Below are positions 6,226 to 7,690 of a DNA stretch of 7,690 nucleotides, piece after piece; the stretch's first letter is position 1; each line of letters opens with the position of its first letter. The DNA lies in IMG/VR virus record IMGVR_UViG_2597490227_000004; one strand, given 5' to 3'. The notes under the pieces were generated by a model, which did not search any database, had not been told where the DNA came from, and worked only from the letters and a program-made list of their open reading frames with translations. Source of the stretch: a virus. Lineage: Duplodnaviria; Heunggongvirae; Uroviricota; Caudoviricetes. Both the position numbers and the translations under genes were made by a program.

Positions 6226-6295
6226 ACGGATAGTCCTGGTATTGTTCCATCACATCTTGAGGATGCTCTTCGAACTCTTCAAATTCTTCTTCCAT
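6209..6295 (-). CDS. orf28: orf28-like acidic micro-protein (28 aa; MEEEFEEFEEHPQDVMEQYQDYPYDYDY)
   Basis: Hand translation from ATG 6293-6295 with AAGGTG RBS 5 nt upstream. It overlaps the ral start by 17 nt, the same arrangement as lambda orf28. Confidence 0.5.
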   Translation of the reverse strand: MEEEFEEFEEHPQDVMEQYQDYPYDYDY

Positions 6296-6438
6296 ATATC
6301 ACCTTAAATAGTGGATTGCGGTAGTAAAGATTGTGCCTGTCTTTTAACCACATCAGGCTCGGTGGTTCTCGTGTACCCCTACAACGAGAAATCGGATAAA
6401 CTCTATTCACCCCTACAGAGAGCAAAAGAGAAACGCCG

Positions 6439-7020
6439 ATGAACAACTCATGGTGGCAGGAACTAATGCATTTTTTCCTGCAAGGAATGACACTTAAACA
6501 GTTGATTCATATGCTAATCATCCTGATCATATTGATTATTGTTATGCCGGTAAGCGTAAAAGAATGGATAAACCTGCATAATCCAGAAATCCTTCCTCAT
6601 TACTGGATGTATTACATCCTGTTGTTTTGCGTTAGCTATGTGCTTAACGGCGTTGTTAATTCCGCTTATCACGCTGTGACTGAAAGAATTGAGGTATTCG
6701 CTGCTCAGAAGCGCAAATCTAAAGAAGAAAAATATGTGCAAGATTTGTTTGATTCGTTAACTCTTGGAGAAAGAGCGTATTTGGCATTCGCTGTAGCCGC
6801 TAATAACCAGCTACAAACGGAAAAGGGCGCTCATGAATCAATTTCATTGCTCAAAAAAGGACTCCTCGTTCGAAGGCCTCCTGCTGTTGGATATCCTGAT
6901 ACCGACCGTTTCGTTATCCCTGAAAGCTATAGACATGAGTGCTACATTAGGTTTGCCGGGAAGGCAGACAGCCTTATGGATGAACTTATCGCTCAGGATA
7001 AGCATGGCAAAAACAAGTAA
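6439..7020 (+). CDS. sieB: Superinfection exclusion protein B (SieB), membrane protein, 193 aa
   Basis: The only convincing plus-strand gene. It has a hydrophobic N-terminal region (LIHMLIILIILIIVMPVSV, YWMYYILLFCVSYVLNGVV) and matches lambda/P22 SieB by recall. It is convergent with N. Confidence 0.8.
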   Translation: MNNSWWQELMHFFLQGMTLKQLIHMLIILIILIIVMPVSVKEWINLHNPEILPHYWMYYILLFCVSYVLNGVVNSAYHAVTERIEVFAAQKRKSKEEKYVQDLFDSLTLGERAYLAFAVAANNQLQTEKGAHESISLLKKGLLVRRPPAVGYPDTDRFVIPESYRHECYIRFAGKADSLMDELIAQDKHGKNK

Positions 7021-7036
7021 TTAGCAAATGAATTTA

Positions 7037-7309
7037 TCATCTCGCCGTCAGTTGTTTTGATTTCCGGTAGCCTGCCGCGTAAAGAGCTACGTTCGGAAGA
7101 CAAGTTGAACCTTCATATTTTCTGGTCAACGTTGTCAGAGTTATCACTTCTGCTCTCATTGCTGGTTTGAGCTTGCATTGCAAGACCACTCGTGAAGGGG
7201 TTGGCCTGTGTAGCTTGTCGGAGCTGATCGCCTCCTGACTTTGCAGATTTGCGCGACGAGCTCTACGGCGAGAAGCTGCGGTGCCTTTAAATTCTGTTTT
7301 TCTGGACAT
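7037..7309 (-). CDS. N: N-type transcription antiterminator (90 aa from ATG 7307-7309), not lambda N
   Basis: GGGAGG RBS 4 nt upstream of ATG 7309. Arginine-rich motif GTAASRRRARRANLQ near the N-terminus, as in N proteins. The C-terminus CLPNVALYAAGYRKSKQLTAR matches H-19B/933W-type N by recall. The ORF-track start at 7381 is an upstream extension. Confidence 0.8.
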   Translation of the reverse strand: MSRKTEFKGTAASRRRARRANLQSQEAISSDKLHRPTPSRVVLQCKLKPAMRAEVITLTTLTRKYEGSTCLPNVALYAAGYRKSKQLTAR

Positions 7310-7407
7310 GGATTCCTCCCGAATAAACTTTGGCGATGCAATCTCGAAGCTCCTCCTGAGACGGTTGCTTCGGCATTGCATCCCACAGCTTATGTGGTTG
7401 GGTGATC

Positions 7408-7452
7408 TGGCTTTTCAGCCACGTAGTCGAGAGTCGACGTTGTTTAAAGAGC
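7408..7452 (-). promoter_or_regulatory. nutL: Candidate nutL: boxA (GCTCTTTAAACAA) plus boxB-like hairpin with GAAA loop
   Basis: On the minus strand, GCTCTTTAAACAA (plus 7440-7452) closely matches the boxA consensus. 18 nt downstream lies UGGCU-GAAA-AGCCA (plus 7408-7421), a 5-bp stem with a GNRA-type loop. Both sit in the N leader about 100 nt upstream of the N ATG. Confidence 0.4.
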
Positions 7453-7497
7453 CTGCCAGTCTGTTCCATTTGGCTTCCAGCGTCCTGCTGACGGTTA

Positions 7498-7533
7498 AAT
7501 AGTACGATATGTACTTTACAAGATCAATACAAT
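7498..7533 (-). promoter_or_regulatory. Candidate pL promoter with overlapping operator-like inverted repeat
   Basis: Minus-strand -35 TTGTAT (plus 7528-7533), 17-nt spacer, -10 TATCGT (plus 7505-7510), each 4/6 to consensus. The inverted repeat AGTAC-GATAT-GTACT at 7502-7516 overlaps the -10. The call is weak. Confidence 0.2.
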
Positions 7534-7690
7534 TTGTTGTAAGTTGGCGTGGTTTTTTATAACGCTTTGTATTTAATAGTGTTGTTTTTTAGCGTGGATG
7601 TATTGCCTCGGCGATGTAAGGAGAGATCAGAATTGCGTGGTTTAGTGGGTTGCATCTATTTATTTTTCAATAAATATAATTGGTTATGTG

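What the first reader, a model, noticed from the sequence alone, without database searches (positions are those of the whole stretch)
6296..7036. sieB on the opposite strand, convergent with N, with a repeat-bearing upstream region
SieB is the only plus-strand gene. Its stop is 16 bp from the N stop, with no room for a terminator between the convergent genes, so pL transcripts must run antisense through sieB. The 143-bp region upstream of sieB (divergent from orf28) contains two copies of ACCCCTACA (6375-6383 and 6409-6417), the second ending 22 nt before the sieB ATG. These are possible regulatory sites for a lysogen-expressed exclusion gene.
Basis: partly seen in the sequence, partly recalled or inferred. 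Interest (0 to 1): 0.45.

Follow-up and report, generated by a model that had tools for sequence, protein, structure and literature searches.

The report
sieB promoter and antisense-RNA control region
The repeat-bearing stretch upstream of sieB is the already characterised sieB promoter, mRNA start and 'sas' antisense-RNA region of phage P22. The two repeats change together across related phages, which suggests they let the antisense RNA recognise the 5' end of the sieB message.

Summary
sieB lies at 6439-7020 (+), 16 bp from the stop of N. ACCCCTACA occurs at 6375-6383 and 6409-6417.

The window is phage ev207, and the region is about 98% identical to P22. In the curated P22 record the sieB promoter, mRNA start and internal esc start are annotated. 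Mapped onto the window, repeat 2 is the first 9 nt of the sieB mRNA (start at 6409). Repeat 1 overlaps the -35 element. Both repeats lie inside the equivalent of the sequenced 127-nt P22 sas antisense RNA (6318-6443, minus strand). The system itself is therefore already known.

Comparison adds something. The module (conserved 3' stem/pseudoknot, hairpin, -10, second copy of the hairpin-apex sequence at the mRNA start) precedes at least 17 unrelated gene families. At least part of it matches 44% of complete E. coli genomes. At least six sequence types of the repeat exist, and both copies carry the same type.

My best reading, which is an inference, is that the apex of the antisense hairpin pairs with the mRNA 5' end. 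The rivals are a duplication relic or a shared RNA-binding factor. Protein operator sites are unlikely.

The parts
6439..7020 (+). sieB coding sequence (193 aa, P22-type allele)
   Evidence: ORF. Annotated SieB in PhiR63_2 and ev207. Pfam SieB 2.5e-22 and phrog_1301 3e-122. 82% identical to P22 SieB and 20% to lambda SieB.
6511..7020 (+). esc: in-frame internal start at Met25, giving the truncated SieB inhibitor (by homology)
   Evidence: The P22 record annotates esc at 29830-30336, which is sieB start + 72 nt. The window has the same ATG and near-identical flanking sequence.
6372..6402 (+). sieB promoter by homology to P22: TGTACC (6372-6377), 19-nt spacer, TAAACT (6397-6402)
   Evidence: The P22 promoter feature 29690-29720 reads TGTACC...TAAACT. 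Aligned to the window. It is too weak to be called by the consensus scan.
6409..6409 (+). inferred sieB mRNA 5' end (first A of repeat 2)
   Evidence: The P22 'sieB RNA start site' 29727 is the A of ACCCCTACAG. The window has the same sequence and the same spacing from the -10.
6375..6383 (+). repeat copy 1 (ACCCCTACA): overlaps the -35 element and forms the apex plus upper arm of hairpin SL-II
6409..6418 (+). repeat copy 2 (ACCCCTACAG): first 10 nt of the sieB mRNA
   Evidence: Invariant although the 6-nt discriminator and the leader vary.
6366..6390 (-). SL-II hairpin of the minus-strand RNA (UUCUCGU / ACGAGAA lower stem, GUA/UAC upper stem, GGGG apex)
   Evidence: Folds. Covariation: 85% of cells paired against 31-45% when slid, and 8 pairs changed on both sides. 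G.U 39 against A.C 19 favours the minus strand.
6400..6423 (-). SL-I: weaker hairpin around the complement of copy 2 (GCUCU / AGAGU)
   Evidence: Folds. Lambda forms it with different arms, AAACU/AGUUU (read from the sequence).
6335..6365 (-). conserved 3' domain (SL-III), possibly an H-type pseudoknot (CCAC/GUGG and GCCUG/CAGGC, A-rich loop)
   Evidence: Found alone with a single hairpin in e14, SfII and Rac-SA53.
6318..6443 (-). equivalent of the P22 sas antisense RNA
   Evidence: The reverse complement of the sequenced 127-nt P22A-sas RNA (PMC13397905) aligns here with 4 substitutions and 1 indel.
7037..7309 (-). N-like antiterminator gene, convergent with sieB
6209..6295 (-). orf28-like small ORF, divergent from sieB
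   Evidence: Near-identical to the lambda orf28 region. Boundaries inferred from lambda.

Best explanation
The 143-bp region is the control region of the known sieB-esc-sas system.

**Shown by homology to mapped P22 features**
- sieB is transcribed from its own weak promoter (TGTACC-19-TAAACT).
- Its mRNA starts at the A of repeat 2 (6409) and has a 30-nt leader.
- An internal start at 6511 gives Esc, the SieB inhibitor.
- The opposite strand of 6318-6443 corresponds to the sas antisense RNA. sas blocks SieB translation but not Esc translation when the phage itself grows lytically (function taken from the literature).

**Shown by operon geometry**
- pL transcripts must cross sieB antisense.

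**Shown by comparison**
- In the minus-strand RNA the complement of repeat 1 is the 5' arm and GGGG apex of a covariation-supported hairpin (SL-II).
- The complement of repeat 2 lies in a weaker hairpin (SL-I).
- A very conserved 3' domain follows.
- The two repeat copies co-vary through at least six sequence types.

**Inferred**
- The SL-II apex (CUGUAGGGGU) pairs with the single-stranded 5' end of the sieB mRNA (ACCCCUACAG). This nucleates or specifies antisense pairing, much as the loop of IS10 RNA-OUT meets the 5' end of RNA-IN.
- The repeat then acts as a specificity tag of a portable cassette that silences lysogen-expressed genes during the phage's own lytic growth.
For: **Identity with P22**
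- 97.8% identity to P22 over 6330-6420, lying under the P22 features 'sieB: promoter' and 'sieB RNA start site' (H64).
- P22 features and sequence; alignment.
- The sequenced P22 sas RNA spans both repeats. sas function is described.

**Repeat conservation**
- Repeat 2 is invariant at a fixed distance from the -10 although the discriminator and the downstream allele vary.

**Concerted change of both copies**
- Types: ACCCCTACAG, TCCCCAACAAC, TTCCACAGTCAA, CCCCAATGTAAT, CCCCCACAA, CCCCAACATAA.
- 11.0 of 14 positions are identical within a module, against 8.4 +/- 0.3 when copy 2 is shuffled among modules. Positions +1 to +5 after the C-run each show 2-3 matched states.
- The linker carrying the -10 is homologous between types 1 and 2 (ATCGGATAAACT against TTCGGTTAATCT). 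The two-copy form therefore predates their divergence.

**Structure and energetics**
- SL-II covariation and minus-strand bias.
- Cognate hairpin-mRNA duplexes are -18 to -23 kcal/mol. Cross-type duplexes are -4 to -16, and the hairpin alone is -6.5 to -12.

**Independence from neighbours**
- At least 17 unrelated protein clusters lie downstream. One cluster occurs with three repeat types.
Against: - No experiment on this phage is available, and the two 1993 primary papers could not be read. I do not know whether the repeats or the SL-II loop were already analysed there.
- sas is fully complementary to the leader anyway, so a second recognition site is not obviously needed.
- The GGGG apex is closed by a 3-6 bp upper stem that must open, and there is no clear YUNR U-turn loop.
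- A few modules have mismatched copies (L409, L385, L460) or lack copy 2 (L415, L463, L406, L429).
- Whole-RNA folds are not more stable than shuffles (z = -0.75).
- Many sequences are related, so the shuffle statistics are not probabilities.
- Whether sas is processed from pL transcripts or has its own promoter was not established. The scan found no minus-strand promoter.
Confidence: 0.6

Rival explanations
1. The two copies are a relic of a tandem duplication of a ~34-bp promoter/hairpin unit. They are kept alike by recent or repeated duplication, or by conversion, and copy 1 has no present function beyond supplying a -35.
For: - Single-unit modules exist (K-12 e14 ymfI, SfII, Rac-SA53). In these a -10-like TATNCT forms the left arm of one hairpin, followed directly by a Shine-Dalgarno sequence and ATG.
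- In type 2 the similarity between units extends to about 21 nt, including CTGG.
- The 33-35 bp offset places the earlier apex at -35 automatically.
Against: - The linker with the -10 is homologous between types, so one old duplication is likelier than six independent ones.
- Similarity is concentrated in 10-13 nt and decays on both sides.
- Closely related types 4 and 6 differ by TG to CA in both copies.
- SL-II stems are maintained by compensatory changes.
Confidence: 0.2
2. SL-I and SL-II are twin binding or processing sites on the pL/sas RNA for one RNA-binding factor (RNase III, ProQ, Hfq or a phage protein). That factor stabilises or cuts out the antisense RNA, and the copies are alike because they bind the same factor.
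For: - Both copies sit near hairpin apices in the minus-strand RNA.
- A common core CCCC(N)ACA is shared by most types.
- sas is a discrete stable species in infected cells.
Against: The variable part of the repeat differs between types while the hosts are the same, and no co-varying phage protein exists. A host factor should hold the sequence constant rather than allow six types.
Confidence: 0.12
3. The repeats are DNA operator sites at -35 and +1 for a transcription factor that controls PsieB.
For: The positions (-34 and +1) would be well placed for repression, and direct repeats 34 bp apart are conserved.
Against: - The same repeat type occurs with different immunity regions, N genes, left flanks, hosts and at least five downstream gene families.
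- The same gene family occurs with three repeat types.
- No cognate protein can therefore co-vary with the sites.
- Copy 2 lacks the dyad that copy 1 has.
- Hairpin variants are G.U-compatible on the minus-strand RNA.
Confidence: 0.06
4. The 9-mer repeat is a chance coincidence.
For: Within the window alone the excess is modest.
Against: Conservation and concerted variation across 90 unique modules. Only 6 of 1800 shuffles reach a 9-nt repeat, against 64 of 90 real modules.
Confidence: 0.01

Closest known systems
Phage P22 sieB / esc / sas (Ranade & Poteete 1993; curated in NC_002371.2)
   Same: - Same gene order (ral - sieB - gene 24/N).
- 82% identical protein.
- 97.8% identical control region, including the annotated promoter, RNA start, esc start and the whole sequenced sas RNA.
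   Different: - The host phage is an E. coli lambda-like phage (ev207) with a different N and left arm.
- There are 4 substitutions and 1 indel in the sas region, one of which (A for G at 6384) shortens repeat 1 from 10 to 9 nt.
- No experiments exist for this phage.
Phage lambda sieB (git) region
   Same: Same position between N and ral/orf28. The sequence is identical from orf28 through repeat 2 apart from a few bases.
   Different: Homology breaks right after repeat 2. The lambda leader and SieB are a different allele, 20% identical.
IS10 RNA-OUT / RNA-IN, and plasmid CopA/CopT and RNA I/RNA II antisense control (my knowledge of these systems)
   Same: An antisense hairpin whose apex is complementary to the 5' end or a loop of the target. 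Sequence types would act like specificity or incompatibility groups.
   Different: Here the well-formed hairpin (SL-II) is not the cis-complement of the target. It is a second copy 34 bp away, so the match has to be maintained by selection. Pairing kinetics are untested.
Prophage anti-sRNAs AgvB/AsxR and other Rfam prophage sRNAs
   Same: Short RNAs encoded at conserved positions of lambdoid prophages.
   Different: Those lie downstream of PR' at the late moron site. No Rfam family matches this region.

Membership tests
SieB protein family (Pfam PF14163) | Profile match above the curated threshold | tested here: met
   79.5 bits against a cut-off of 26, E = 2.5e-22. phrog_1301 matches over the full length, 3e-122.
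SieB protein family (Pfam PF14163) | Abortive exclusion of superinfecting phages by a lysogen | not testable with these tools
   This is a phenotype and needs plaque or burst assays.
P22-type sieB-esc-sas regulatory system | Own promoter and mRNA start just upstream of sieB, independent of pL | tested here: met
   Met by homology only. The annotated P22 promoter and RNA start lie in sequence 97.8% identical to the window.
P22-type sieB-esc-sas regulatory system | In-frame internal initiation codon producing Esc | tested here: met
   ATG at 6511 (Met25), aligned with P22 esc 29830.
P22-type sieB-esc-sas regulatory system | Antisense RNA covering the leader, Shine-Dalgarno sequence and start codon of sieB but not the esc start | tested here: met
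   The sequence of the 127-nt P22 sas RNA maps to 6318-6443. It ends 5 nt into sieB and 68 nt before esc. Expression in this phage was not tested.
P22-type sieB-esc-sas regulatory system | Antisense RNA made only during lytic growth or superinfection (pL-dependent) | not testable with these tools
   The geometry requires pL read-through. No minus-strand sigma-70 site was found. P22 reads were seen only in infected cells.
Kissing-loop antisense RNA systems | Hairpin apex of the antisense RNA complementary to an accessible region of the target | tested here: met
   The SL-II apex and 5' arm are complementary to mRNA nt 1-10. The mRNA 5' end is predicted unpaired. Cognate duplexes are -18 to -23 kcal/mol.
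Kissing-loop antisense RNA systems | YUNR U-turn loop motif and fast bimolecular pairing | tested here: inconclusive
   The apices are GGGG tetraloops closed by weak A-U/G-U pairs, and no clear YUNR motif is present. Kinetics are not testable here.
Operator sites of a transcription factor | Site sequence co-varies with a cognate DNA-binding protein encoded by the element or host | tested here: not met
   Repeat type is independent of the downstream protein cluster, the flanks and the host.

The most novel reading that the evidence does not exclude
The repeat is the specificity determinant of a widespread, portable 'self-silencing cassette' of lambdoid prophages. A lysogen-expressed gene of any kind is placed behind a promoter whose transcript starts with a 10-13 nt tag. 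The pL read-through RNA carries a dedicated hairpin displaying the complement of that tag, plus a pseudoknot-like 3' stabiliser. Tags have diversified into at least six types. The hairpin copy is not cis-complementary, so an incoming phage could also silence a resident prophage's different exclusion gene if it carries the same tag. That would be an RNA-based counter-defence.
Probability: 0.3. Interest if true: 0.75.

Novelty: already known. Interest (0 to 1): 0.45.

Why it matters
For this window the answer is largely settled biology. It is the sieB promoter, leader and sas region known from P22, so the finding as written adds little.

The comparative result may matter more. One compact cassette, with a matched sequence tag at the mRNA start and in an antisense hairpin, precedes many unrelated prophage genes. 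At least part of it is found in nearly half of complete E. coli genomes. If the tag mediates RNA-RNA recognition, it would explain how phages switch off their own exclusion or abortive-infection genes when they grow lytically. It would also give a simple rule for predicting which prophages can silence each other's genes. This can be tested directly with loop and 5'-end swap mutants.

Tried and rejected
- **Genome-contig scan.** The scan with both repeats as the pattern was swamped by unrelated matches from cyanobacteria and metagenome-assembled genomes.
- **Rfam.** No relevant family was found. The only hits were spurious mir-137 and snoR126.
- **AgvB/AsxR and Pas/STnc100 prophage sRNAs.** I considered these because CCCCAACAACAA resembles a GcvB target. 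I rejected them: they lie at the PR' moron site.
- **Primary papers.** The two Ranade & Poteete 1993 papers are not held. I cannot say whether the repeats were discussed there.
- **Full-text search.** A search for the repeat sequences found only the P22 OMV sRNA paper.
- **Consensus promoter scan.** It does not detect PsieB, which has a weak -35 and a 19-nt spacer. It found no minus-strand promoter for sas.
- **RNAalifold.** On the MAFFT alignment it missed SL-II because arm lengths vary. A structure given by hand was counted instead.
- **Cross-module identity control.** The first version was blurred by the shared CCCC core. It was replaced by an analysis anchored on the C-run.
- **Lambda tL1.** I could not locate it from annotation or from the terminator scan.

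Full report
**1. Observation**

- sieB is the 193-codon ORF at 6439-7020 (+).
- The N-like gene ends at 7037 on the other strand. The 16 nt between the stops contain no hairpin.
- The orf28-like ATG is at 6295 (-), which leaves a 143-bp intergenic stretch.
- ACCCCTACA occurs exactly at 6375-6383 and 6409-6417.

Within the window alone the repeat is only mildly unusual.

**2. Identity of the locus**

- The window is 100% identical to Escherichia phage ev207 (NC_049949.1, 27387-35076) and to PhiR63_2. It is the early-left arm of a lambda-like phage: int, xis, exo, bet, gam, kil, ea10-like, ral, then sieB on the opposite strand, then N.
- The protein is a clear SieB: Pfam PF14163 at 2.5e-22 and a full-length match to phrog_1301. 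It is the P22-type allele, 82% identical to P22 SieB and 20% to lambda SieB.

**3. What the upstream region is**

The curated P22 record (NC_002371.2) annotates four features:

| P22 feature | P22 coordinates |
|---|---|
| sieB promoter | 29690-29720 |
| sieB RNA start site | 29727 |
| sieB | 29758-30336 |
| esc (in-frame) | 29830-30336 |

Reading the P22 sequence, the promoter is TGTACC, a 19-nt spacer, then TAAACT. The RNA start is the first A of the second ACCCCTACAG. The window is 97.8% identical over this stretch and aligns without ambiguity. Mapped onto the window:

| Feature | Window coordinates |
|---|---|
| -35 element | 6372-6377 |
| -10 element | 6397-6402 |
| mRNA 5' end | 6409 |
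| esc start | 6511 |

Repeat 2 is therefore +1 to +9 of the sieB mRNA. Repeat 1 (-34 to -26) overlaps the -35 element.

A 2026 small-RNA sequencing study of P22-infected Salmonella gives the sequence of the sas antisense RNA. It is 127 nt, on the minus strand, and was found only in infected samples (PMC13397905). Its reverse complement aligns to window 6318-6443 with 4 substitutions and 1 indel. It covers the sieB start codon, the leader, both repeats and the conserved sequence further left.

According to reviews of Ranade & Poteete 1993, sas switches translation of the sieB message from SieB to Esc, so the phage escapes its own exclusion.

**4. Conservation of the repeats**

- Lambda is nearly identical from orf28 through repeat 2, and homology stops immediately after it.
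- Among 123 IMG/VR loci fetched through either SieB allele, 117 have both copies. The others are mostly cut contigs.
- With an anchor placed between the repeats (CGAGAAATCGGATAAACT), both copies were present in 117 of 119 loci. Repeat 2 is invariant 6 nt after the -10, although the 6-nt discriminator takes at least seven forms and the leader and gene downstream belong to at least five alleles.

**5. Concerted change**

More distant versions show the same architecture throughout: a very conserved element (GCCTGnCTTTTAnCCACATCAGGC-nnGGTGG), a hairpin, a -10-like hexamer, then a second copy of the hairpin-apex sequence. The repeated sequence itself differs between lineages, and it differs in both copies:

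| Type | Repeat sequence |
|---|---|
| 1 | ACCCCTACAG |
| 2 | TCCCCAACAAC(AA) |
| 3 | TTCCACAGTCAA |
| 4 | CCCCAATGTAAT |
| 5 | CCCCCACAA |
| 6 | CCCCAACATAA |

- 64 of 90 unique modules have an exact direct repeat of at least 9 nt at offset 33-35. Only 6 of 1800 shuffles reach that.
- With both copies anchored on their C-run, 11.0 of 14 positions are identical within modules. The figure is 8.4 +/- 0.3 (maximum 9.3 in 2000 trials) when copy 2 is shuffled among modules.
- Positions +1 to +5 each occur in two or three states that are matched in 42-48 of 51 distinct modules. The match fades after about +6.
- The linker carrying the -10 is homologous between types 1 and 2. Types 4 and 6, which have near-identical flanks, differ by TG/CA in both copies. 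The two-copy form therefore seems older than the types, and the copies changed together.
- Exceptions exist. Three modules have one or more mismatches between copies, and four have lost copy 2.

**6. Strand and structure**

- On the minus strand the complement of copy 1 forms the 5' arm and GGGG apex of a hairpin (SL-II, window 6366-6390). It is predicted in every type.
- On a 36-sequence alignment, 85% of cells pair, against 31-45% when partners are slid. Eight of ten SL-II pairs show changes on both sides. There are 51 compensatory cells against 25.5 expected (0 of 500 shuffles reach the observed value).
- G.U pairs outnumber A.C by 39 to 19, and minus-strand folds are more stable than plus-strand folds (-9.0 against -6.7 kcal/mol). 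This points to the minus-strand RNA. SL-II also lies upstream of the plus-strand RNA start, so it is not in the sieB mRNA.
- The complement of copy 2 lies in a weaker hairpin (SL-I). P22 and lambda form it with different arm sequences.
- The conserved 3' element can form two interleaved helices (CCAC/GUGG and GCCUG/CAGGC) with an A-rich loop. Rare variants keep both helices, but the evidence is thin.

**7. Why a protein operator is unlikely**

- The same repeat type occurs with different left flanks, N genes, immunity regions and hosts, and with several unrelated downstream genes.
- One downstream family (phrog_1244-like) occurs with three repeat types.
- At least 17 unrelated protein clusters follow the module, most of unknown function.
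- Nothing outside the module co-varies with the repeat, so the partner of each copy is most simply the other copy, through the two RNA strands.

**8. Proposed mechanism (inferred)**

The sieB mRNA starts with ACCCCUACAG and is predicted unpaired there. The sas/pL RNA displays CUGUAGGGGU at the SL-II apex.

| Species | Energy (kcal/mol) |
|---|---|
| Cognate hairpin-mRNA duplex | -18 to -23 |
| Cross-type duplex | -4 to -16 |
| Hairpin alone | -6.5 to -12 |

I propose that GGGG/CCCC contact nucleates pairing. Pairing then spreads through the weak upper stem, and this speeds or specifies antisense binding to the leader.

Single-unit relatives fit this picture. In K-12 e14 ymfI, SfII and Rac-SA53 the -10 forms the left arm of the only hairpin, and the apex lies about where the RNA should start. 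In the two-copy form, a duplicated hairpin may have been freed from promoter constraints. All of this is untested.

**9. Rivals**

- A duplication relic.
- A shared RNA-binding or processing factor acting on twin hairpins.
- DNA operators.
- Chance.

Each is assessed in the rival explanations section.

**10. Distribution and novelty**

- A match to at least part of the module occurs in 2398 of 5426 complete E. coli genomes.
- No Rfam family covers it, and no accessible paper contains the repeat apart from the P22 sRNA table.
- The primary 1993 papers could not be read, so I cannot exclude that the repeats were noted there.

**11. Verdict**

The finding as written describes a known system correctly, with a partly wrong idea of what the repeats are. 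The covariation of the two copies and the portability of the cassette are the parts worth following up.

Noticed in passing
window 6335-6365 (minus strand): The highly conserved 3' domain of the sas-like RNA can form an H-type pseudoknot: CCAC/GUGG interleaved with GCCUG/CAGGC, with an A-rich loop UUAAAAGA. Rare variants keep both helices (CCUC/GAGG; CCACG/CGUGG with GCCGGG/CCCGGC). 84% of cells pair against at most 38% when slid, but there are few independent changes.
   Followed up: partly
L497 1500-1580 (E. coli K-12 e14, upstream of ymfI); L500 1200-1275 (SfII); L501 1200-1272 (Rac-SA53): These are single-unit versions of the module. The conserved 3' element is followed by one hairpin whose left arm is a -10-like TATNCT, then a Shine-Dalgarno sequence and the ATG of a small plus-strand gene. 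There is no second copy. This suggests the two-copy form arose by duplication of a ~34-bp unit.
   Followed up: partly
loci L377-L496: The same cassette precedes at least 17 unrelated small proteins (phrog_1244, 8894, 5286, 7681 and several with no family). All sit on the strand opposite to the early-left operon next to the repressor or N. They may be further lysogen-expressed exclusion or defence genes.
   Followed up: partly
window 5951-5978: A perfect 9-bp inverted repeat (GTGTATTCA / TGAATACAC, 10-nt loop) lies between the ea10-like gene and ral. In other phages that lack ral/orf28 it abuts the conserved 3' element directly. It was picked up only as a spurious mir-137 hit.
   Followed up: no
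window 6018-6033 (minus strand): A terminator-like hairpin plus T-run lies at the 3' end of ral. It is identical in lambda.
   Followed up: no
window 6487-6515 (+): This is the only sigma-70-like match in 5900-7690: ATGACA-17-TATGCT. Its -10 overlaps the esc ATG (6511). The region holds fewer such hits than chance expects, so it is probably meaningless.
   Followed up: no
window about 550-640 and 1295-1500: Runs of N mask parts of int and xis (X in the translations). The ORF boundaries there differ from the RefSeq annotation.
   Followed up: no
window 6419 / lambda L002 about 581: A mosaic junction between the shared promoter module and the allele-specific leader and sieB falls immediately after repeat 2.
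   Followed up: partly
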